The position numbers were made by a program, and so were the translations under genes. The notes beneath the pieces were generated by a model. The model ran no database searches. It was not told where the DNA came from and saw only the letters and a program-made list of their open reading frames with translations. Below are positions 7,959 through 17,485 of a DNA stretch of 25,733 bases, piece after piece (positions within the stretch are counted from its first letter, which is position 1; each line of letters begins with the position of its first letter). The stretch comes from a bacterium. Lineage in GTDB: Bacteria; SZUA-79; Acidulodesulfobacterales; Acidulodesulfobacteraceae. The stretch spans positions 1-25,733 of the forward strand of contig JAJXZU010000164.1 in the NCBI GenBank assembly GCA_021779895.1, written 5' to 3'.

Positions 7959-10046
7959 ATGAAGGAAACGCTAAACATGAACAAAACAAAAAAATTTAAT
8001 ATTTTTTTTCTTTTTATCATTTCGCTTATAGCGTCTTTTGTTTTTAATTCCGCATTTGCATCTGGTAAAAACGCTATCACCTTAAAAAACTCTTCCAAAT
8101 ATTACCATTACGCTTTAAAAGGAGCCGTAAGATATAAATTGGCTGCGATTAAAGGAACTCCGGTAGTTTACGGTTATAATAAAGCCGGAAAGTTCATTGG
8201 ATACATTTTTCTTTCCACAAATTTAGTCAATATCAAGAGCTACTCCGGCAAACCCCTTATATCCCTCATATCTATCGATAAAAAAGGTATAATTAAAGGG
8301 GTAAGGGTAATACACATCGACGACCCGATTTTTTTAATAGGCATTCCCGTTACAAAGCTTTACGATTTCACCGACCAATACATAGGGAAAAATATCAGAA
8401 GCCATATATATATCGGCGGCAAAGGCAAAAACCACGTATCGGCTATAGCAAGCGCCAGCGTTACGACGGTAGCGATGGACCAGACTATTTTAATGGCGGC
8501 AAGAAGGTTTGCCGCTAAAGCCGGAATTATTAAGGCAATTCCGATAGTAAAATATAAATTAAAAAATAATTACAAACCTGAAACATGGAGCGAGCTAAGG
8601 CGGAACGGAAGCATTAAAAAATATGTTATCTCATGTTCGCAAATGGGAGTAAAAAATTGTGCGGGACCCTACGAAACATTATACTACGGCATATTAAGCG
8701 TTCCCGACATAGGAAAAAACCTGCTCGGCAATTATACGTACGGCTATCTTTCGAAAAGGTGGGAAAAAAGAAACGAGACGGCCCTTTTTGTTATCGCAAA
8801 CGGAATTACGTCCTTTCTGGGTTCAGGCTTCGTAAGGGGAGGCGTGTTCGAAAGGTTTCATCTGGAACAGGGATACAGTTCTATAATATTCAGGGACTTC
8901 AACTTCAGCTATATCTCGTCGCTTAAAATAAAAAGCGCTCCTAACTTTAAAGAAGGCGGGATATTTACGGTTCCTCTTTCTAAATTTAACCCTATTCTTC
9001 CTTTTCATATAGTCTTTACTTTCCACAAGCATGTATCGCACGGTTCCATGCTGAAAAAAGAAAGCTTCGCCACCTTTTATTCAAGCTACCATTTGCCGGG
9101 AAAATACTACATCTCAAGTTATCGTTACGTAAAGAAACTCAAGCCTTACGAGAAGGCATGGATACAATATACGCCTTATGTTATTCCGCTTATCGTGTTT
9201 CTGATTCTTCTAACCGTTATTTTTATTATTAAAGATAAATTTATAGTAAAGAAAACATCGGCAAAGGGCAGGAAAGGAATAAAATGGCTTTATTATTCGG
9301 TAATGTTTTTGTTCCTCCTATTAATAGGAATTATTAAACCTTCCCAGCCTTCGATTACCCACTTATATACTATCTACGACAGCCTGTTCGTAAGCTATAA
9401 TCCGACGCTATTCCTGCTTGACCCGCTGATTTTTATTCTTTTCGTATTTATTTTTATAACGGCGATAGTGTGGGGCAGGGGTGTTTTTTGCGGCTGGGTT
9501 TGCCCGTTCGGAATTATTCAGGAATATATTCACAGGATAAAAAACCGGATTCTTCCCGAAAAGATTGCCAAAAAAATCTCTTTAGAATTCGGCAATAAAT
9601 TTCATTTTAAGTTAATTTATTTAAAATATGCTATATTTATAATATTGATGGCGACGGCTATTATTTCTATCGCATGGGGCGAGAGGCTTGCGGAAATAGA
9701 ACCGTTTAAAACCGTTTTTTACCTGCATTTCGAAAGGCAGTGGTATTTCGTATCTTATGCTATAATACTGATAGGCATATCCGCCCTGTCTTACAGGTTC
9801 TTCTGCAAGTATATGTGCCCAGTCGGGGCTTCGTTCGGGTTGCTGTCGAAATTAAAAATCTTCAGCATAAAAAGATACGAGGAGTGCAAAAGCTGTAAAA
9901 TATGCTCCCGTTCCTGCACTATAAGGGCAATAGACGATAAAGGCAAAATCAACAGGTCGGAATGCTTTTACTGCTTAGAGTGTCAAATAAATTATAACGA
10001 CGAAAAAATTTGCCCCCATTTAATAAAGCTTAAAAAAAATAGATGA
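7959..10046 (+). CDS. nosR: NosR membrane-bound Fe-S flavoprotein
   Basis: Periplasmic FMN-binding-like domain, TM helices, GRGVFCGWVCPFG and RFFCKYMCPVG motifs, C-terminal CKSCKICSRSC and CFYCLEC ferredoxin motifs. Start could be 7977. Confidence 0.92.
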   Translation: MKETLNMNKTKKFNIFFLFIISLIASFVFNSAFASGKNAITLKNSSKYYHYALKGAVRYKLAAIKGTPVVYGYNKAGKFIGYIFLSTNLVNIKSYSGKPLISLISIDKKGIIKGVRVIHIDDPIFLIGIPVTKLYDFTDQYIGKNIRSHIYIGGKGKNHVSAIASASVTTVAMDQTILMAARRFAAKAGIIKAIPIVKYKLKNNYKPETWSELRRNGSIKKYVISCSQMGVKNCAGPYETLYYGILSVPDIGKNLLGNYTYGYLSKRWEKRNETALFVIANGITSFLGSGFVRGGVFERFHLEQGYSSIIFRDFNFSYISSLKIKSAPNFKEGGIFTVPLSKFNPILPFHIVFTFHKHVSHGSMLKKESFATFYSSYHLPGKYYISSYRYVKKLKPYEKAWIQYTPYVIPLIVFLILLTVIFIIKDKFIVKKTSAKGRKGIKWLYYSVMFLFLLLIGIIKPSQPSITHLYTIYDSLFVSYNPTLFLLDPLIFILFVFIFITAIVWGRGVFCGWVCPFGIIQEYIHRIKNRILPEKIAKKISLEFGNKFHFKLIYLKYAIFIILMATAIISIAWGERLAEIEPFKTVFYLHFERQWYFVSYAIILIGISALSYRFFCKYMCPVGASFGLLSKLKIFSIKRYEECKSCKICSRSCTIRAIDDKGKINRSECFYCLECQINYNDEKICPHLIKLKKNR

Positions 10047-11371
10047 AATACAAAATTATTTTATTTTTATTAATTGCGTCTGTTTTATTTTACCCGGCTT
10101 GCGCCCTGCCTATGACCATTTACGCGGGCGGAAGCGGCACGGCTTCCGCAGCCTCTCTTCAGAAGATATTAAATCACGCCAACCCAGGCGATACGGTTAT
10201 AGTCAAAAAAGGCATATATCAGGGCAACCTCTATATAAACAAGCCGTTAATCGTTATAGGCTTAAACTATCCAACGGTAGACTGTATTGGAAAAGGCAGC
10301 GGAATAACCGTCGATGCCCCTCACGTAAAGATAAAAGGCTTTAAGATTATTAACGACGGCAATAACCTTGGCAAAATGGACGCGGGAATACTGTTAAGGC
10401 AAAAAGCGAAATTTGCGGTTATTGATAATAATCGCATTATCGGGTCTAATTCTAACGGAATCTATGTTGACGGAGCATTCTTCGCCACGGTAGAAAATAA
10501 TTTTATTTCTTCCGAAAGAAAACTTCCTTACGGCAATAGAGGCTATGGAATTTATTTATGGAACGCGCAATACGGCGTATTCGAAAAAAATTACATAACA
10601 CGTTTTATCGGCGGATTTTACGTGATTTCTTCGCCGAATACTTATCTTTTAAAAAATATTATAATCCATGATTATTACGGAACCCATTATATGTATTCTA
10701 ACCGCGACATAGTCGCCGGAAATTTCGTCAAAGACACGATAGACGGTCTTGCGCTTATGTATTCAAGGCATATATTGGCCGCCTTAAATACTATCGTTAA
10801 CGCGAAACATAAAGGTTTTTTGTTTAATCAGGTTTTTTACGATACCGTAGTTAATAACGTCGTGATAAACTGCCATAAGGGCATGGATTTGTACGACACT
10901 GTCTATAATAAAATTATACATAATCTGGTAATCCATAACAGGATAGGAATGCACATATGGGGCGGCTCTTTTCCCAATACCGTCTATAACAATTCTTTTA
11001 TAAACAACGTCTTTCAGATTAAATTCCTTGCGCATAACGACGTTTATTGGGATTATAAAAAAAAAGGCAATTACTGGTCGGATTACAACGGCTTCAGCAT
11101 GAAAAAAAACAACGTCGGGTCACTGCCTTACAGGTCGAACTCTATTTCCAGCTATATTTACTGGAAATTTCCGATTGCAAAACTCCTGTTAAGCGGCTCT
11201 CCGGTTATCCAGACGCTTCAGTTTATAGAAAACAGCTTTCCTATTTTTACCATTCCAGGAATAGTGGATAAATTTCCTTATCTGAAGCCTACTTTCCCTA
11301 AAAAAATAATAAAAAACTCTACAAAGGACGGTTTTGTTTATGTCAAAACAGGATATGATAATGGAAAATAA
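10043..11371 (+). CDS. nosD: NosD periplasmic beta-helix CuZ maturation protein
   Basis: Signal peptide, parallel beta-helix repeats, GTHYMYS and GNYWSDY motifs; 4-bp overlap with nosR. Confidence 0.95.
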   Translation: MKYKIILFLLIASVLFYPACALPMTIYAGGSGTASAASLQKILNHANPGDTVIVKKGIYQGNLYINKPLIVIGLNYPTVDCIGKGSGITVDAPHVKIKGFKIINDGNNLGKMDAGILLRQKAKFAVIDNNRIIGSNSNGIYVDGAFFATVENNFISSERKLPYGNRGYGIYLWNAQYGVFEKNYITRFIGGFYVISSPNTYLLKNIIIHDYYGTHYMYSNRDIVAGNFVKDTIDGLALMYSRHILAALNTIVNAKHKGFLFNQVFYDTVVNNVVINCHKGMDLYDTVYNKIIHNLVIHNRIGMHIWGGSFPNTVYNNSFINNVFQIKFLAHNDVYWDYKKKGNYWSDYNGFSMKKNNVGSLPYRSNSISSYIYWKFPIAKLLLSGSPVIQTLQFIENSFPIFTIPGIVDKFPYLKPTFPKKIIKNSTKDGFVYVKTGYDNGK

Positions 11372-12356
11372 CTTAAACGAAGATTCGCCGGAATCGCTTT
11401 CGGTTATAACGGCTAAAAATATCCGAAAAGACTATAATCTTAAAGGCGGTTTTATTTTTAAAGCCTTGCGCGATATAAACCTTACGGTAAAAAAAGGCGA
11501 GGTTTTTACCATCGTGGGACACAACGGGGCGGGAAAATCTACCTTGATTAAAATTATTATGGGGCTTACGAACCCGACCGAAGGCAATTTATATATTTTA
11601 AATACCGATACTACTTTTAACCTGCCGAAAAACGTTAAAGCAAAAATAGGCTACATACCCGAAACCGTAAACTTTTACGGCAACTTAACCGGAATGGAAA
11701 CGATGAAATTTTTCGGAAAACTTAACAACGTTTATAACGAAAAACTTTTTGCGGAACTTTTAGAATCCGTAGGAATACTTAAAGCGGCCGGCAAAAAGGT
11801 AATCGCCTATTCAAAGGGTATGAGGCAGAGGCTTGCCTTCGCGGTATCGCAGATAAAAAACCCCGATATATTTATATTCGACGAACCTACCAGCGGAATG
11901 GATCCTTCAGGCATTAACGAGTTTGTTTTGCTCGTTAAATCTTTGCATAGGGACGGAAAAACCATTATAATGACGTCCCATATACTCCCGGAGGTAGAAG
12001 ATATTTCCGACAGGATATGCATTATGATGAACGGGGAGGTTACCGCGCTGGGCGGAATAAACGGCTTAATCGAAAGGGCGGGGCTTACCTCGTCGATAAA
12101 CCTGCGTTTTAAAGACCGTCGCGCCGTCGAAATAACCGCTTTCGAAAATATGAAAGCCGATTCGCTTTTAATAGACTATACGGTCGACGAAATAAACCCT
12201 GAAATTAATATCGGTTTTTTTGAAAAAAATAGAATAAAACTGCTTGATAAAATCATAGACAAATACGAAAGCGAACTTGAAGACTTAAATATTAAAAAGC
12301 CGGGGCTTTTCGAAATATATAAACATTTTTCGGTAAAGAGGGAAACTAATGATTAA
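11361..12356 (+). CDS. nosF: NosF ABC ATPase
   Basis: Walker A GHNGAGKST, signature YSKGMRQR, Walker B FIFDEPTSG. Start placed at ATG 11361 (AGGA 7 nt upstream). Confidence 0.9.
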   Translation: MENNLNEDSPESLSVITAKNIRKDYNLKGGFIFKALRDINLTVKKGEVFTIVGHNGAGKSTLIKIIMGLTNPTEGNLYILNTDTTFNLPKNVKAKIGYIPETVNFYGNLTGMETMKFFGKLNNVYNEKLFAELLESVGILKAAGKKVIAYSKGMRQRLAFAVSQIKNPDIFIFDEPTSGMDPSGINEFVLLVKSLHRDGKTIIMTSHILPEVEDISDRICIMMNGEVTALGGINGLIERAGLTSSINLRFKDRRAVEITAFENMKADSLLIDYTVDEINPEINIGFFEKNRIKLLDKIIDKYESELEDLNIKKPGLFEIYKHFSVKRETND

Positions 12357-13188
12357 TTCAAGAGTAATATTAGCTATTTCAAAAAAAGAATTTATTAATA
12401 GAATTAAAAATATCAGCCTTTTCATTCTGATTTTTATCCTGGCCCTGCTGTCTTTCGCGATATCCTATTTCGGAACAAGCCCCTTCGGCTTGACAGGCTT
12501 TCACGGGATACCGGTTACAATCGCTTCGCTTATGAGCCTTTCCATTTACTTGATACCGTTAATAGCTTTTATTCTCGGCTACGATTCTATTACGGGAGAA
12601 GAAGAAGACGGAACTATGCCTCTTTTGCTATCGTCATCGGCGACGCGCAACGAAATATATCTCGGAAAATTTATCGGACTGATATTAGTAATCTCTATTG
12701 CTATTTTTGCAGGTTACGGCATATCCGGAACGGTAATCCTTTTAAAAGGAAATGCTTCCGACCTTCTAAGCTATTCCCTTTTTATCGTTTCGTCCGTTCT
12801 GCTGGGCATTTCCTTTCTTTCCGTCGCAATTTTGATTTCGAGCTTTACGAGGTCGAGAACGGCATCTATTACTATTTCGGTTTTCTTATGGTTTTTTTAT
12901 ATTTTTATATACGATTTATTATTAATCGGAATCCTCGTCGCCACGAAAGGAAAAGCCGTATTCATCAACAATACGGTTATAGGCTCGCTGCTGCTGTTTA
13001 ATCCTGCCGACGTTTACAGGCTTTTTACCATATCTTTTATCGGCGGGTTAAAGGGCTATTACGGACTTACCAGTATTTTAACCGGAAAATTTATACTGAG
13101 TCATTTTCTTTTAATTTTTATATACATTTTATGGATTTTTCTGCCTGTTTTCTTGGGAATGTTTATTTTTGCGAAAAAAAGATATTAA
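12349..13188 (+). CDS. nosY: NosY ABC permease
   Basis: About six TM segments; LIPLIA..LGYDSITGEEEDGT..LLLS motif, YLGKF, NPADVYR. Confidence 0.9.
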   Translation: MINSRVILAISKKEFINRIKNISLFILIFILALLSFAISYFGTSPFGLTGFHGIPVTIASLMSLSIYLIPLIAFILGYDSITGEEEDGTMPLLLSSSATRNEIYLGKFIGLILVISIAIFAGYGISGTVILLKGNASDLLSYSLFIVSSVLLGISFLSVAILISSFTRSRTASITISVFLWFFYIFIYDLLLIGILVATKGKAVFINNTVIGSLLLFNPADVYRLFTISFIGGLKGYYGLTSILTGKFILSHFLLIFIYILWIFLPVFLGMFIFAKKRY

Positions 13189-13225
13189 AAAAGGCTATCA
13201 AAATAAATTAAGGAGGAATAAAGGT

Positions 13226-13492
13226 ATGGCGGATATGTTTAATAATATCGAGGATATCGCAAAGAAAAAAGAACTTGCCGATATGATAGATGAAATAACC
13301 ATGATGAAAGTCGCAATTGACGACATAAAAGCGGTATATGACGTTAAAGACGAAGACCGTCTCTTAAAAAAAATTAAAAACGGCGAGATTGCCGAACATC
13401 CGGCTTACGAGGGGTATCTTTCGATACTCCATATAAGGGACTATATAGACCACTACAGGTTAAAAATCCAGAAATTTATGGACGAATTATAA
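13226..13492 (+). CDS. 88-aa acidic cytoplasmic hypothetical protein (weak resemblance to TumA-like antitoxins)
   Basis: AGGAGG at 13211-13216 then ATG 13226 (the track start at 13169 overlaps nosY and is unlikely); helical, motif IKNGEIAEHPAYEGYL; no signal peptide. Confidence 0.75.
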   Translation: MADMFNNIEDIAKKKELADMIDEITMMKVAIDDIKAVYDVKDEDRLLKKIKNGEIAEHPAYEGYLSILHIRDYIDHYRLKIQKFMDEL

Positions 13493-13522
13493 AATTTATA
13501 ATAACCTTACGGAGTATATTTT

Positions 13523-13903
13523 ATGAAACATGAAAAAGATTTGCTTGAAAAAACAAAAACAGCGGAAGAATTTGCGGTTACGCTTGCAAACGATATAAAT
13601 TCTATGTTCGGCAATGTCCTGAAATCTCCGGCGGAAGTTAAAAGCGACGGGCTCTTGCTTCAATTTAAAGACGGCTCCGGGCTGGAATTGCATTATCCCG
13701 ATAAAAAAGAGTATTCTTTTAGTTTCTTAAGAAACGATAAACTGTTCATTATTGACACCGCCCCTGTTCACGGCGAACTCGAAACGTTTCCCAATCATAT
13801 TCATAATTTCGACGGAAAATTAATAAAAGACGAAATTACAAGCATTAACAACGAACCGGTTAAAAATATCGAAAATTTCTTAAAATTCTTCGGGTATCTA
13901 TGA
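13523..13903 (+). CDS. DUF6516/TumE-like protein
   Basis: Motif IDTAPVHGELETFPNHIH matches the D.AP.H....TFP.H.H pattern I recall for DUF6516; GGAG RBS; stop overlaps the nosX start (ATGA). Confidence 0.65.
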   Translation: MKHEKDLLEKTKTAEEFAVTLANDINSMFGNVLKSPAEVKSDGLLLQFKDGSGLELHYPDKKEYSFSFLRNDKLFIIDTAPVHGELETFPNHIHNFDGKLIKDEITSINNEPVKNIENFLKFFGYL

Positions 13904-14946
13904 GAATAAAATTAATTATTTTAATTTCATTTTTATTGTCGTCAGTTTTTATTCTAAATTCGTGCGTAAAATATAAAAAGAAAACCGTTCCTAAAAAAAT
14001 AGAAATAAAAAAATCGTTTTATTCTATGGGAACTTTCTGGGAAATTAAAGTTATTTCCGCCGTTAAAAACAGGAAAAAAGACTTAAAAGCGGTAAATCTT
14101 GCGATAAAATGCGTAAAAAAATTAGACGATATACTGAGCGATTTCAAACCTTCGAGCAACGTATCTGCTATTAATAAATACTCAGGGATTAAACCGGTCA
14201 AGGCAAGCCGCTATACTTTAAGCCTTTTAAAAATGAGCCTTAAATTTCACGGGTTAACGGAAAATTCGTTTAACGCCACAATAGGGCCGGTGATGAAGAT
14301 ATGGGGGTTTTACGATAAAAAATACACAGTGCCTTCAAGGGCAGAAATTAAAAAAGCTCTTTTTCTAAGCAATATCTCGTTTATTAAAATTAATAAAAAT
14401 ACCGTATTTCTCGAAAAAAAAGGTATGATGCTCGATTTCGGAGGCGACGGCGAAGGATACGGAATAGACGAGGCTCTTTTCGTTTTAAAAAAATACGGTA
14501 TAAAAAATGCCATGATAGACGGCGGGGGACAAATAACCGCTATAGGTAAAAATTTAAAAGGAAAGAGTTGGAAAATCGGCCTGTTAAATCCCTTGAATAA
14601 AAATAAAATATTAAAGATAATAAGATTAAAAAACGAATCTATAGAAACTTCGGCAAATTACGAAAACCGGTTTTCGCATAAAGGAAAATACTACGGACAT
14701 ATTATGAACCCGGAGACCGGATATCCGGTTGACGGCAACACCTTAAGCGACACGGTCATAGTTCAAAACAGGTATTTCCGCTACCCCTCGACCGTCGCCG
14801 ACGCGCTTTCATGTTCTTTTTTTATACTGGATAAGAATCAAATATCGGCCGTAATAAAAAAACTAAACAGGCCCGTAAAGGTTATTCTTATAAAAAAGGC
14901 CGCCGGCAAATCGGGTCTTAAGATATTATATATATTCAACCGATAA
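13900..14946 (+). CDS. nosX: ApbE/NosX flavin transferase lipoprotein
   Basis: Lipobox LNSC; MGT, FNATIGP...IWGF, DFGGDGEGY..D, DGGG, ETSANYE, HIMNPETG, ADALS motifs. Confidence 0.9.
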   Translation: MRIKLIILISFLLSSVFILNSCVKYKKKTVPKKIEIKKSFYSMGTFWEIKVISAVKNRKKDLKAVNLAIKCVKKLDDILSDFKPSSNVSAINKYSGIKPVKASRYTLSLLKMSLKFHGLTENSFNATIGPVMKIWGFYDKKYTVPSRAEIKKALFLSNISFIKINKNTVFLEKKGMMLDFGGDGEGYGIDEALFVLKKYGIKNAMIDGGGQITAIGKNLKGKSWKIGLLNPLNKNKILKIIRLKNESIETSANYENRFSHKGKYYGHIMNPETGYPVDGNTLSDTVIVQNRYFRYPSTVADALSCSFFILDKNQISAVIKKLNRPVKVILIKKAAGKSGLKILYIFNR

Positions 14947-14963: not shown

Positions 14964-16211
14964 TTACGCTCCGTGCGGCACATAAACGGACACGGTGTTA
15001 GTCTCGAAAGGCTTTCCTGTTTCAGGCGAAACCAAAGACATCTTAAAGTCGTGAACGCCTGGCGATAACGCACCCTTTTTTACTCCAGCGTAAAAAATAA
15101 TCCTTTCTTTTCCGTGAGGGTTTAATACCGCAAAAGTTTTTTGCCCCTCCAAAAACTGATGATTAGAAAAAACTGAACTGTTTATTTCGGGTTTTACCGC
15201 AATCTTTTTGCCGGTAAAATTAGTAGCATTTATTACGAATTTATTTAAAAAATAACCTTTTAATTTTGGAGAATTATAATTCCAATAGTGGTATAAGTTA
15301 TAATTTGCGGCGGTAAACCTGATTTTCCCTACCCTGAAAGGCGCGAGATACATTAATCCCCCTATGGCGAATAAAACTAAAACAAGAAAACCGACTTTAA
15401 AATTCATAAAAGAAAACTTGCCGTTTTCTCCCCTGAAACCGAATTTAATAAATTTTTCTGGGCAGGCATCGACGCATTTAGCGCAGTTAAAGCAAGTCCT
15501 GAAATGCGTATTTCTCGGGTCGAAACCCTGAGGACATACGTCTTTGCAATCCGAACAGGTTTTGCATGCCGTCCCGGAAGGCTTATAACTTATGCCTATT
15601 GAATTTTCGTCCGACAGGGACGACTGCGTATAGCCGTATAGGCAGTAATCGCACATCTTTGGCCTTAATACGGTTAAATCCATTATAAACAGCGGAAACA
15701 CTACAAGCAGGGGATATACAAGGTTTTGAAAATTATACGAAGAAAAAGAATTAAAATTAATAAAATACGAAGAAACGGAGTAAGTTAAAGCGGCTGATAA
15801 AATTACTATAAACGAATAAACCGCTGTTTTTTCGGGAAAGCCGCGCTTTACTTTCGGTTTACCGCCGTTGACGGCTTTTTTATCGAATGTTTTTTTTATT
15901 CTATTTATAACGTAATCCCTGAACTCGTAAATCGTGAGCTGAGGGCAGAAAAAACCGCACCAGACCCTTCCGAACAAAAGATATATCAAGTAGCCGGCCA
16001 CGACAAGAAACGATAAAAAAAGCGTAACTTCGTAAACCGATACCGAATTTAAATATATTTGATGATGTAAAACGAATATCGAATCCGTTTTTTTGTCTAA
16101 CCGTATAAATCCTAAAACCGGAGTTAAAAATAATAAAAAGATTATTAAAATTTGGGTAAATCTTCTTAAAATCAGAAGTCCGGTAATTTTTGAATCTTTA
16201 ATTCTTTCCAT
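14964..16211 (-). CDS. ccoG: CcoG/FixG/RdxA-like 4Fe-4S membrane protein, paralog 2
   Basis: FGRVWCGFFCPQ, variant RPKMCDYCLYG, CKTCSDCKDVCP, CFNCAKCVDACP, C-terminal Ig-like domain. Confidence 0.72.
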   Translation of the reverse strand: MERIKDSKITGLLILRRFTQILIIFLLFLTPVLGFIRLDKKTDSIFVLHHQIYLNSVSVYEVTLFLSFLVVAGYLIYLLFGRVWCGFFCPQLTIYEFRDYVINRIKKTFDKKAVNGGKPKVKRGFPEKTAVYSFIVILSAALTYSVSSYFINFNSFSSYNFQNLVYPLLVVFPLFIMDLTVLRPKMCDYCLYGYTQSSLSDENSIGISYKPSGTACKTCSDCKDVCPQGFDPRNTHFRTCFNCAKCVDACPEKFIKFGFRGENGKFSFMNFKVGFLVLVLFAIGGLMYLAPFRVGKIRFTAANYNLYHYWNYNSPKLKGYFLNKFVINATNFTGKKIAVKPEINSSVFSNHQFLEGQKTFAVLNPHGKERIIFYAGVKKGALSPGVHDFKMSLVSPETGKPFETNTVSVYVPHGA

Positions 16212-16234
16212 TTTGCACCTTCTTGTTTGGGATA

Positions 16235-17485
16235 TTATTTTTTCGTTATAAAAAAAACCGTTTTTTTTGACGAAACCGTTTTCCCTTTTGAATTTAAAAT
16301 CAGGAAATCTACCGGATAAGGTCCAATTTTTAATTTTTTCCCCGTATTTCCGGCCTTGCGTATATAAAGCACGGGATAAGCGGTTACGCTTTCGTGAGAC
16401 TTTATATTCATGGAGCCGCCGGAAAAGAAATACAGTTTTAAGTCTTTGCTAACGGCTTTTAAAGTCAAATGCTTTGTTTTATCGGAGGCATTTTCGACTA
16501 TAAGCTTATACTTGTTCGCGATAATTTTATCGTTTGATATAAAAGCTTGATTTTTATTAAATATTGATTGATTTAAATAATGGTAATTAGAAAATTTAGC
16601 GATGAATATTACAAACGACCCTATCAATAAAAACAATGCAATGGATACCTTATAAAAAAAAGGCCTGTTTTTGGCTTGATTTTTTTTATCTTCTTCCAGC
16701 CCAAAGGAATAAAGCAGATTTTTTCCTTCTTCATTCCGCGAGCCGAACCTTTCCCTGCAGGCATCTATGCAGTATCCGCAGTTAACGCATTGAATCTGTG
16801 AGGTTTTTTTTCTGGGGTCTATTTTCATAAAACAGGCATCCGTGCAATTAGAACAGTCTTTGCATAAAGTATTATCGACCGGCTTGTATTCTATCCTTAA
16901 AGTTCTTGAGTCGTTAAACAGAAACTGGATAAAACCGTAAGGGCAGGCATAGATACAATATTTATGCCTTAACAGAACCATATCGAATATTATTAAAGCC
17001 GTAACTGCTCCCGCAATGAGCCACAAATACGGGGTAAGGTAATTCGGTTCCAGAAAAGCATGCTTTATAATCAAGGTCGGGGGGACAAAATACGCGATTA
17101 AATTAAACCCTATAAAGAGCGACAATACCGTCATAAAAATTAAAACCGACGCATATATAACCGGCTTTGAAACAGCGCCAGCCCTTTTTTTAATATAACT
17201 GAACAGCCCTTCGAAAATCTGCGATAATATGGTCTGCGGACAGATAAATCCGCAATATACCCTACCAAAGACTATGGAAACAAAAATAAAAGCAAATAAA
17301 ATAAAAAGCAGAAAAAGCCATAAAACGTAAAATTCGTTAATGAAATAATACCTGCCGAATAAAACGATGGTTCCTTTCAATACGTTCATTCTGATTATAT
17401 TAAGGACGGGAGCGGCTATAATAAACAGCGTGGAAATTACTAATAATATCTTGCTTATAAGTTTTATACTTATATTATATTTCAT
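16235..17485 (-). CDS. ccoG: CcoG/FixG/RdxA-like 4Fe-4S membrane protein, paralog 1
   Basis: FGRVYCGFICPQT, RHKYCIYACPYG, CKDCSNCTDAC, CVNCGYCIDAC, C-terminal Ig-like domain; cco context. Confidence 0.8.
   Translation of the reverse strand: MKYNISIKLISKILLVISTLFIIAAPVLNIIRMNVLKGTIVLFGRYYFINEFYVLWLFLLFILFAFIFVSIVFGRVYCGFICPQTILSQIFEGLFSYIKKRAGAVSKPVIYASVLIFMTVLSLFIGFNLIAYFVPPTLIIKHAFLEPNYLTPYLWLIAGAVTALIIFDMVLLRHKYCIYACPYGFIQFLFNDSRTLRIEYKPVDNTLCKDCSNCTDACFMKIDPRKKTSQIQCVNCGYCIDACRERFGSRNEEGKNLLYSFGLEEDKKNQAKNRPFFYKVSIALFLLIGSFVIFIAKFSNYHYLNQSIFNKNQAFISNDKIIANKYKLIVENASDKTKHLTLKAVSKDLKLYFFSGGSMNIKSHESVTAYPVLYIRKAGNTGKKLKIGPYPVDFLILNSKGKTVSSKKTVFFITKK

What the first reader, a model, noticed from the sequence alone, without database searches (positions are those of the whole stretch)
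13226..13903. TumA/TumE(DUF6516)-like gene pair embedded and translationally coupled inside the nos operon
Seen: two small cytoplasmic ORFs with good RBSs between nosY and nosX, with no promoter, terminator or mobile-element scar evident; the second overlaps the nosX start (ATGA). The second has D-T-A-P-V-H...T-F-P-N-H-I-H (three His); the first has Y....E..L.K.I..GEI.EH..YE, loosely like TumA antitoxins. Known: DUF6516 was described as a type II toxin domain; neither protein is a recognised Nos factor. Inference: either an addiction module stabilising the block, or a domesticated pair acting in N2O reductase maturation (His-based Cu handling or stress control). This is the best candidate here for new nos accessory genes.
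Basis: partly seen in the sequence, partly recalled or inferred. Interest (0 to 1): 0.75.

Follow-up and report, generated by a model that had tools for sequence, protein, structure and literature searches.

The report
NosP/NosQ acid-protection pair for N2O reductase
The two small genes between nosY and nosX are divergent copies of NosP and NosQ, helper proteins recently shown to let bacteria build a working nitrous-oxide reductase at low pH; NosQ descends from the same protein family as the TumE toxins but here is a fixed part of the nos operon, not a toxin-antitoxin module.

Summary
There are two cytoplasmic ORFs, orfA (88 aa) and orfB (126 aa), each with a Shine-Dalgarno site. The orfB stop overlaps the nosX/apbE start (ATGA). 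orfB passes Pfam TumE/DUF6516.

The pair is not a free toxin-antitoxin module. Within the host family, the 6 of 38 genomes that have nosZ are exactly the 6 that have the pair, always in the slot nosY-orfA-orfB-nosX. dN/dS is about 0.06-0.15, like the nos genes.

A motif scan of about 185,000 species genomes returned 80 loci. At least 78 carry the pair inside clade I nos clusters, usually nosRDFYL-orfA-orfB, in Beta- and Gammaproteobacteria.

A December 2025 bioRxiv preprint (10.64898/2025.12.16.694761) names these genes nosP and nosQ. It shows they are needed for NosZ maturation at pH 4.8 but not 6.8, and reports a cryo-EM NosZ2P2Q2 complex with zinc between NosP and NosQ. Its Table S5 already lists a 76%-identical orthologue of orfB.

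Points the preprint's held text does not discuss:
- NosQ is homologous to validated-type TumE (HHalign 98.4%).
- The acidophile copy is the deepest NosQ branch.
- The nearest outgroup is a free-standing pair in anaerobic archaea.

Verdict: a new member of a known kind.

The parts
13226..13492 (+). orfA = nosP homologue (88 aa), an all-helical small cytoplasmic protein of the MJ0235 family (PF27273). Conserved motif E57-H58-P59-x-Y61-E62-x-Y64-L65, plus R78.
   Evidence: ORF and translation. Orthologues carry precomputed PF27273; the family is named MJ0235. 28% identity over the full length to the Trinickia dabaoshanensis NosP-position gene, also 88 aa, E 1e-11. Conservation. Three-helix model. 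dN/dS about 0.09.
13523..13903 (+). orfB = nosQ homologue (126 aa), TumE/DUF6516-fold protein. Conserved Y64, D78-T79-A80-P81-x-H83, P90-N91-H92-x-H94, D103, T106, N115.
   Evidence: Pfam TumE 27.4 bits against cut-off 23.4. 29% identity, E 4e-20, to the Trinickia NosQ-position gene. HHalign 98.4% to canonical TumE. Inside the NosQ clade with 95/89 support. Conservation. dN/dS about 0.10.
13211..13216 (+). Shine-Dalgarno AGGAGG for orfA, 9 nt before the ATG.
   Evidence: Read directly from the sequence.
13511..13514 (+). Shine-Dalgarno GGAG for orfB, 8 nt before the ATG. The 30-nt spacer between orfA and orfB keeps both genes in one reading frame.
13900..13903 (+). ATGA overlap of the orfB stop with the nosX/apbE start (translational coupling).
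   Evidence: In relatives the two genes are tightly spaced but do not always overlap.
5144..7177 (+). nosZ (clade I-type N2O reductase), the presumed client of NosPQ. The N-terminus carries a twin-arginine motif (TRRGFL) followed by LSGC.
   Evidence: Pfam nos_propeller domains and cupredoxin. N-terminal translation.
7324..13188 (+). nosL (7324-7875), nosR (7959-10046), nosD (10043-11371), nosF (11334-12356), nosY (12349-13188): the rest of the maturation operon upstream of the pair.
   Evidence: Pfam and NCBIfam hits.
13900..14946 (+). nosX (ApbE-family flavin transferase), the last gene of the operon.
   Evidence: Pfam ApbE 229.8 bits.

Best explanation
orfA and orfB are the NosP and NosQ of this acidophile lineage (the family that includes Candidatus Acidulodesulfobacterium).

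Inferred mechanism, taken from the Trinickia work:
- The two proteins are made in the cytoplasm from the nos transcript and form a 1:1 heterodimer held together by a metal ion (Zn).
- The likely ligands are the conserved His of NosQ (H83, H92, H94) and the E57-H58 motif of NosP.
- The heterodimer docks on each side of the apo-NosZ dimer and on its N-terminal region.
- It rides with NosZ through the Tat pathway and plugs the channel to the CuZ site. The histidine ligands therefore stay unprotonated until NosDFY and NosL load copper in an acidic periplasm.

NosQ shares ancestry with TumE toxins. In this clade the pair has been fixed as an operon component rather than behaving as a mobile toxin-antitoxin module.

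Shown here: gene existence, homology to NosP/NosQ, exclusive nos linkage, purifying selection, natural fusions, and a confident heterodimer-like model.

Inferred: the Zn ligands, NosZ binding, co-export and the low-pH phenotype in this organism.
For: 1. Synteny and co-occurrence in the family. 6 of 38 genomes have nosZ, and the same 6 have orfB. The order is always nosY-orfA-orfB-nosX.

2. Cross-phylum linkage. 78 of these contain nos genes next to the orfB homologue, and 68-72 have an orfA homologue immediately upstream. The other 2 have the gene at the edge of the held stretch.

3. The loci include taxa named as nosPQ carriers in the preprint: Paraburkholderia adhaesiva (species tested) and the genus Trinickia (T. 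dabaoshanensis is in Table S5). They show the same nosL-P-Q-cytochrome c-nosR layout and an 88-aa NosP.

4. Direct similarity: orfA to NosP E 1e-11, orfB to NosQ E 4e-20.

5. The preprint's Table S5 lists RZD15445.1, locus tag EVJ47_04010 (Ca. Acidulodesulfobacterium ferriphilum), as a NosQ hit. P0013, which carries that locus tag, is 76% identical to orfB.

6. Tree: orfB lies inside a clade (95/89 support) with all the nos-linked proteins. Canonical TumE and the archaeal relatives lie outside it.

7. 19 natural NosP-NosQ fusion proteins exist, matching the fused Dyella form in the preprint.

8. An AlphaFold2 model of the in-frame read-through fusion has pLDDT 88.7 and pTM 0.84.

9. dN/dS is 0.06-0.15, and dN is comparable to nosD and nosX.

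10. NosZ has a Tat motif and neither small protein has a signal-like N-terminus.

11. The lineage comes from acid mine drainage, and one member was reported to express nosZ (PMC6776010).

12. Function and structure in Trinickia: loss of N2O reduction at pH 4.8 but not 6.8, and a 2.4 A NosZ2P2Q2 structure with Zn between P and Q.
Against: Identity to the characterised Trinickia-type proteins is only 28-29%.

The gene position differs. Here the pair lies between nosY and nosX, with nosL moved to just after nosZ. In Proteobacteria it lies after nosL.

The functional evidence comes from one non-peer-reviewed preprint in one genus, and its PDB entry 9X7X is not in the held PDB copy. I therefore could not check ligands or interface residues.

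I had no access to model coordinates, so the Zn site is inferred from conservation only.

The preprint found no enrichment of nosPQ in acidic soils, so acid protection may not be the only role.

NosZ here ends its signal peptide in a lipobox. That may change the N-terminal contacts described for Trinickia.
Confidence: 0.82

Rival explanations
1. An active type II TumE-TumA toxin-antitoxin (addiction) module that stabilises the nos/cco block. orfB would be a translation-inhibiting toxin and orfA its antitoxin.
For: orfB passes Pfam TumE and is homologous to canonical TumE, keeping the superfamily signature Y-S-F...D-T-x-P-H...F-P-x-H-x-H. The layout is bicistronic with the small partner upstream, as in TumE-TumA (PMC10584680). 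The nearest outgroup is a free-standing two-gene module in archaea with variable neighbours.
Against: The whole clade is confined to nos clusters in at least three phylum-level lineages (Pseudomonadota, one Myxococcota locus, and this family), with no free-standing copy among the 80 loci. There is perfect co-presence and co-absence with nosZ in the family. No own promoter was detected. There is only one TumE-like gene in the genome. orfB scores 13.9 bits against the 90-bit cut-off of the NCBIfam TumE equivalog. In Trinickia the deletion has a pH-dependent NosZ phenotype and the proteins co-purify with NosZ.
Confidence: 0.04
2. A nos-dedicated pair with a different job from acid shielding. Examples are a Tat proofreading or escort chaperone that holds apo-NosZ until it is export-competent, or an RNA-level regulator of nos expression that uses the TumE-type His site.
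For: Linkage to nos is shown, but the acid-specific role is not tested here. The preprint found nosPQ abundance unrelated to soil pH, and found the pair in neutrophiles such as Zoogloea. The proposed co-export with NosZ is itself a chaperone-like step. The TumE family was predicted to be a nuclease-like hydrolase.
Against: The Trinickia mutant reduces N2O normally at pH 6.8, which argues against a general escort or regulatory requirement. The cryo-EM shows protein-protein capping of NosZ, not RNA binding.
Confidence: 0.11
3. Decaying passengers: remnants of an old insertion with no present function.
For: None beyond their small size and the lack of any assay in this lineage.
Against: Both genes are intact in all six family genomes, with saturated synonymous divergence and dN/dS of 0.06-0.15. 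About 50 invariant columns were found in each of the two orthologue alignments.
Confidence: 0.01

Closest known systems
NosP/NosQ of Trinickia sp. Z7 and Paraburkholderia (Wang et al., bioRxiv 10.64898/2025.12.16.694761, Dec 2025)
   Same: Two adjacent small cytoplasmic genes inside a clade I nos cluster. NosP is 88 aa in both. Conserved EHPxYExYL (P) and DTAPxH...PNHxH (Q) motifs. Same phylogenetic clade. Natural P-Q fusions exist. NosZ carries a Tat signal.
   Different: Only 28-29% identity. The pair sits between nosY and nosX instead of between nosL and cytochrome c/nosR. The host is a non-proteobacterial acid-mine-drainage lineage, and its copy is the deepest branch of the NosQ clade. NosZ here carries a lipobox. 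No functional data exist for this lineage.
TumE-TumA toxin-antitoxin superfamily (DUF6516; Durairaj et al., Nature 2023, PMC10584680)
   Same: orfB has the TumE domain (Pfam above cut-off; HHalign 98.4%, E 5.6e-15, to NF045777-type TumE). It shares the His-containing signature and the bicistronic partner-upstream layout.
   Different: Not an equivalog of the validated toxins (13.9 against 90 bits). The genomic context is fixed, not scattered. The partner shows no significant similarity to canonical TumA. The documented role of the clade is binding NosZ, not growth arrest.
Free-standing MJ0235-family/TumE-like pairs of anaerobic archaea (ANME-1, Methanosarcinales, Asgard, Bathyarchaeia, Archaeoglobales)
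   Same: The same two families in the same order, often with overlapping stop and start codons. orfA-type HMM E 1e-14 to 1e-17 and orfB-type HMM E 1e-28 to 1e-40.
   Different: FPRH instead of FPNH in the motif. They lie outside the NosQ clade. No nos genes are nearby, and the neighbours are unrelated housekeeping genes. Function unknown.

Membership tests
NosP/NosQ (nos-cluster acid-protection pair) | Two adjacent small genes (or one fused gene) inside a clade I nosZ cluster | tested here: met
   nosZ-L-R-D-F-Y-orfA-orfB-nosX. The same slot is used in 5 other family genomes.
NosP/NosQ (nos-cluster acid-protection pair) | Sequence homology to the NosP and NosQ of the characterised genera | tested here: met
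   Against the Trinickia dabaoshanensis genes in the nosL-P-Q-cytochrome c-nosR slot: E 1e-11 and E 4e-20. Clade support is 95/89. An orthologue appears in the preprint's Table S5. The Z7 sequences themselves were not available.
NosP/NosQ (nos-cluster acid-protection pair) | No signal peptide on P or Q; Tat signal on NosZ | tested here: met
   By inspection only; no predictor was available. The N-termini of P and Q are hydrophilic. NosZ has TRRGFL followed by a hydrophobic stretch.
NosP/NosQ (nos-cluster acid-protection pair) | P and Q form a heterodimer bridged by Zn | tested here: inconclusive
   The single-chain AF2 model of the in-frame fusion has pTM 0.84, and 19 natural fusions exist; both support association. 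Candidate ligands (P: E57, H58; Q: H83, H92, H94) are 91-100% conserved.
NosP/NosQ (nos-cluster acid-protection pair) | Binds NosZ and is required for N2O reduction at low pH only | not testable with these tools
   Needs biochemistry or genetics. Known only for Trinickia.
Pfam TumE (PF20126, DUF6516) | Score above the gathering threshold | tested here: met
   27.4 bits against 23.4. 27.8 bits in the genome search.
NCBIfam TumE equivalog (NF045777, validated-type toxin) | Score above the 90-bit equivalog cut-off | tested here: not met
   13.9 bits. Homology is still clear at the profile level.
Type II toxin-antitoxin system | Toxin arrests growth; cognate antitoxin neutralises it | not testable with these tools
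Type II toxin-antitoxin system | Autonomous bicistron found in varied genomic contexts | tested here: not met
   No promoter-like site stands out before the pair. At least 78 of 80 loci are inside nos clusters. Varied contexts are seen only in the archaeal outgroup.
MJ0235 family (PF27273) for orfA | Match to the family model | tested here: inconclusive
   The model is absent from the local Pfam copy. 12 of 13 orthologues carry a precomputed PF27273 hit, and the nearest Atlas clusters are MJ0235 (cosine score 0.89, which the tool rates as a lead only). The local scan gave only a sub-threshold DUF7342 hit (20.1 against 31.6 bits).

The most novel reading that the evidence does not exclude
NosPQ is an exapted toxin-antitoxin-like module. 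On this reading, an ancient free-standing MJ0235/TumE-type pair, still found in anaerobic archaea, was captured once by a bacterial clade I nos cluster and turned into a metal-bridged cap for apo-NosZ, and the acidophile copy in this window is the earliest-branching survivor.

By extension, the superfamily-wide His signature of TumE may be a partner-bridging metal site rather than (or as well as) a catalytic site. Some 'TumE-TumA' pairs outside nos clusters may then be client-specific chaperones rather than toxins.
Probability: 0.3. Interest if true: 0.6.

Novelty: new member of a known kind. Interest (0 to 1): 0.4.

Why it matters
N2O is a major greenhouse gas. Failure of NosZ maturation at low pH is a long-standing explanation for high N2O emission from acid soils. 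NosPQ is the first proposed molecular remedy for that failure.

This window shows the same pair in an acid-mine-drainage lineage outside the Proteobacteria. It is deeply diverged, under strong purifying selection, and wired differently into the operon. This widens the known range of the system and gives a distant sequence for defining which residues matter.

The link to the TumE toxin superfamily and to free-standing archaeal pairs gives an evolutionary origin that the preprint does not discuss. It also warns that automatic 'toxin-antitoxin system TumE family protein' annotations on these genes are misleading.

Tried and rejected
I used DNA-pattern scans of genome contigs instead.
- The search for related loci with the orthologue alignment found only the same family.
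- Sequence searches of the PDB, Foldseek against the PDB (best E 0.25) and VIA-align wide (best Z 5.5, below the tool's stated noise level of 7-8) gave nothing usable. The weak frataxin-like and E2-like rows for the orfB half are not evidence. PDB 9X7X is not in the held copy.
- orfA against canonical TumA: BLASTP found no alignment. HHalign gave E 0.047, no better than the negative control. A by-eye resemblance (G-E/Q-I/M-x-D/E-E/H...F/Y-x-E-W/Y) is therefore not claimed as homology.
- PF27273 could not be searched locally and appears in no paper held.
- No mobile-element scars, composition shift, promoter or terminator were found around the pair.
- Mis-binning of the contig was considered and rejected. 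PolA on the same contig is 80-87% identical to genomes of the assigned genus and 71-72% to the nos-bearing genera.
The script printed nothing, and reads all sequences by coordinates.

Full report
**What is in the sequence**

The + strand of the window carries a complete clade I-type nos operon:
- nosZ, 5144-7177
- nosL, 7324-7875
- nosR, 7959-10046
- nosD, 10043-11371
- nosF, 11334-12356
- nosY, 12349-13188
- two small ORFs
- an ApbE-family gene (nosX), 13900-14946

orfA (13226-13492, 88 aa) has AGGAGG 9 nt before its ATG. orfB (13523-13903, 126 aa) has GGAG 8 nt before its ATG. The TGA of orfB overlaps the nosX ATG as ATGA.

Neither small protein has a hydrophobic N-terminus. NosZ begins with a twin-arginine motif, TRRGFL, followed by a hydrophobic stretch ending in LSGC.

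Promoter-like and terminator-like sites are no more frequent than in shuffled sequence, and none separates the pair from its neighbours. There are no convincing flanking repeats and no composition shift.

**Family assignment**

orfB matches Pfam TumE (PF20126, formerly DUF6516) at 27.4 bits, above the 23.4-bit cut-off. It scores only 13.9 bits against the 90-bit NCBIfam equivalog for validated-type TumE.

orfA has no significant match in the local Pfam. Twelve of its 13 close homologues carry a precomputed hit to PF27273. The protein atlas names that family MJ0235. The model itself is not in the local library.

The genome is a 66%-complete MAG of 1.1 Mb. It has a single TumE-like gene.

**Behaviour within the host family**

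Close homologues of orfB (65-99% identity) come only from relatives of Candidatus Acidulodesulfobacterium.

Among 38 genomes of the family, 6 have nosZ and the same 6 have orfB. One further genome, G028, gave only a weak partial match (E 7.7e-4) in a stretch without nos genes. In every genome with the pair, the order is nosY-orfA-orfB-nosX.

Synonymous sites are saturated between most pairs of genomes. dN/dS is nevertheless about 0.06-0.15 for both small genes, and their dN (0.14-0.15) lies between that of nosY (0.10) and nosX (0.19). They evolve like the nos genes.

PolA on the same contig is closest (80-87%) to genomes of the assigned genus. The contig is therefore native, even though this is the only one of the 19 searched genomes of that genus in which nos was found.

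**Behaviour outside the family**

A profile HMMER search of 1.84 billion representative proteins found only 77 hits. There is a large gap between the family's own cluster (227 bits) and the next hit (85 bits). Nineteen of the hits are proteins of 200-228 aa. All 19 have an orfA-like N-terminal half and an orfB-like C-terminal half. These are natural fusions.

I back-translated the conserved motif DTAPxH-x5-[FY]PNHxH and scanned one genome for each of about 185,000 species. Most are from Beta- and Gammaproteobacteria: Thiobacillus, Zoogloea, Aromatoleum, Sulfuriferula, Gallionellaceae, Ralstonia, Paraburkholderia, Trinickia, Rhodoferax.

tblastn with the window's proteins shows nos genes beside the orfB homologue in 78 of the 80 loci. 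In the other two, the gene sits at the edge of the held stretch. An orfA homologue lies immediately upstream in 68-72 loci. The usual order is nosR-D-F-Y-L-orfA-orfB, often followed by a second nosL-like gene.

For this clade, they do not.

**Literature**

A full-text search found bioRxiv 10.64898/2025.12.16.694761 (Wang et al., 19 Dec 2025). It reports the following:
- It describes two 'previously uncharacterized' genes, nosP and nosQ, between nosL and nosR in Trinickia sp. Z7 and Paraburkholderia sp. L5. They are fused in Dyella.
- A nosPQ deletion abolishes N2O reduction at pH 4.8 but not at pH 6.8.
- NosZ matured at neutral pH works at low pH without the pair.
- A 2.4 A cryo-EM structure shows NosZ2P2Q2. 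A zinc ion lies between NosP and NosQ, NosP blocks the ion-entry channel to CuZ, and the NosZ N-terminus contacts both.
- Because P and Q lack signal peptides, the authors propose co-export with Tat-targeted NosZ.

Table S5 of the preprint gives NosP as 88 aa and NosQ as 135 aa. Several NosQ hits there are named 'DUF6516 family protein'. The table includes RZD15445.1, locus tag EVJ47_04010, from Ca. Acidulodesulfobacterium ferriphilum. My P0013 carries that locus tag and is 76% identical to orfB.

My loci include P. adhaesiva (a species the authors tested) and two Trinickia genomes. They show the published layout nosL-P(88 aa)-Q-cytochrome c-nosR.

Against the T. dabaoshanensis genes:
- orfA aligns end to end at 28% identity (E 1e-11), sharing G-E-I-x-x-H-P-A-Y-E-x-Y-L.
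- orfB aligns at 29% identity (E 4e-20).

On this basis orfA is a NosP homologue and orfB a NosQ homologue.

**Structure and conserved residues**

orfA and orfB lie in the same reading frame. I translated through the three TAA codons to obtain a natural 11-residue linker. I then folded this chain with an alignment of 125 rows: natural fusions, three similar read-throughs from relatives, and unpaired P and Q sequences.

The model has mean pLDDT 88.7 and pTM 0.84, and only the linker has low confidence. orfA forms three helices. orfB forms an N-terminal helix, a beta-sheet and a C-terminal helix.

Across the alignment, the near-invariant positions are:
- NosP: E57, H58 (99%), P59, Y61, E62, Y64, L65, R78.
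- NosQ: Y64, D78, T79, A80, P81, H83, P90, H92 (100%), H94 (100%), D103, T106, N115.

These residues are the obvious candidates for the Zn site and the P-Q interface. I could not read coordinates, so this is inference.

No solved structure resembles the model.

**Relation to TumE toxins and origin**

TumE-TumA was defined by Durairaj et al. (PMC10584680). In that work, six gammaproteobacterial TumE proteins were toxic in E. coli, and each was neutralised by its upstream partner.

I retrieved NF045777-type TumE genes and their partners from Gammaproteobacteria.
- A NosQ profile aligns to these TumE proteins with 98.4% probability (E 5.6e-15), over the block Y-S-F...D-x-x-P-H...F-P-x-H-x-H. NosQ is therefore a true member of the superfamily, and its three His are an inherited signature, not a nos-specific invention.
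- NosP against canonical TumA is not significant.

In a maximum-likelihood tree, all nos-linked proteins plus the window's family form one clade (95/89 support). The window's family is the first branch. Canonical TumE and a set of 'FPRH' proteins lie outside.

A second pattern scan shows that the FPRH proteins belong to anaerobic archaea: ANME-1, Methanosarcinales, Asgard lineages, Bathyarchaeia and Archaeoglobales. Of the 13 archaeal loci, 10 have a clear NosP-like gene just upstream (HMM E 1e-14 to 1e-17), often with overlapping stop and start. None has nos genes nearby, and the neighbours are unrelated housekeeping genes.

The simplest reading is that a free-standing MJ0235/TumE-type pair was recruited into a bacterial nos cluster. 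The direction of this event and the number of captures are not proven.

**Verdict**

The pair is real, functional by evolutionary criteria, and a NosP/NosQ system.

The host lineage lives in acid mine drainage, and one member was reported to express nosZ (PMC6776010). This fits the published role of NosPQ.

The addiction-module reading is rejected at about 4%.

The discovery of these accessory genes has been pre-empted by the preprint, so novelty is limited to three points:
- a deeply diverged, differently placed member in a new lineage;
- the explicit TumE-superfamily homology;
- the archaeal sister modules.

The functional mechanism in this organism remains inferred from a single preprint on proteins 28-29% identical.

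Noticed in passing
window 13226-13903; L009:9833-10507 (-); L011:9542-10204; L012:9596-10255: orfA and orfB are in the same reading frame in 5 of the 6 family genomes. In two of them a single TAA and 3-6 codons separate the genes. Given that natural NosP-NosQ fusions exist, occasional stop read-through producing a fused protein is conceivable. It may equally be chance or shared ancestry.
   Followed up: partly
L023, L028, L031, L034, L039, L045, L047, L049, L055, L058, L061, L063, L073, L075, L084, L085, L089, L092-L094, L097 (downstream of the orfB homologue): Many betaproteobacterial clusters carry a second, divergent nosL-like gene right after nosQ (22-30% identity to the window's NosL). 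The window has only one nosL, placed after nosZ.
   Followed up: no
G063 and G064 (Trinickia dabaoshanensis, Paraburkholderia adhaesiva genomes): The NosQ proteins of these two genomes, from the genera characterised in the preprint, do not reach E 0.01 against Pfam TumE. NosQ of three other genomes scores 22-36 bits. The NosQ clade therefore straddles the detection limit of PF20126, which explains the mixed 'hypothetical' and 'TumE family toxin' annotations.
   Followed up: partly
window 5144-14946 versus the rest of the family: nos is patchy in the family. It was found in 6 of 38 genomes and, within the window's genus, only in this genome among the 19 searched. PolA on the same contig is typical of the genus. 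Whether this reflects repeated loss or an old within-family transfer of the nos-cco block was not resolved.
   Followed up: partly
window 14964-17485 (- strand): Two tandem paralogous CcoG/FixG-like ferredoxin membrane proteins (415 and 416 aa, about 30% identical to each other) lie between the nos operon and ccoI-ccoOP-ccoN. The arrangement is conserved in G026 and G030.
   Followed up: no
window 5144-5300: The NosZ Tat signal peptide ends in LSGC, a lipobox-like motif. If the NosZ N-terminus contacts NosP and NosQ as in Trinickia, lipidation could alter that contact.
   Followed up: no
L142:1483-3330: One canonical (NF045777-type) TumE gene has no small partner ORF listed upstream. In its place is a long ORF on the opposite strand whose identity I did not check. 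This may be an orphaned toxin gene.
   Followed up: no
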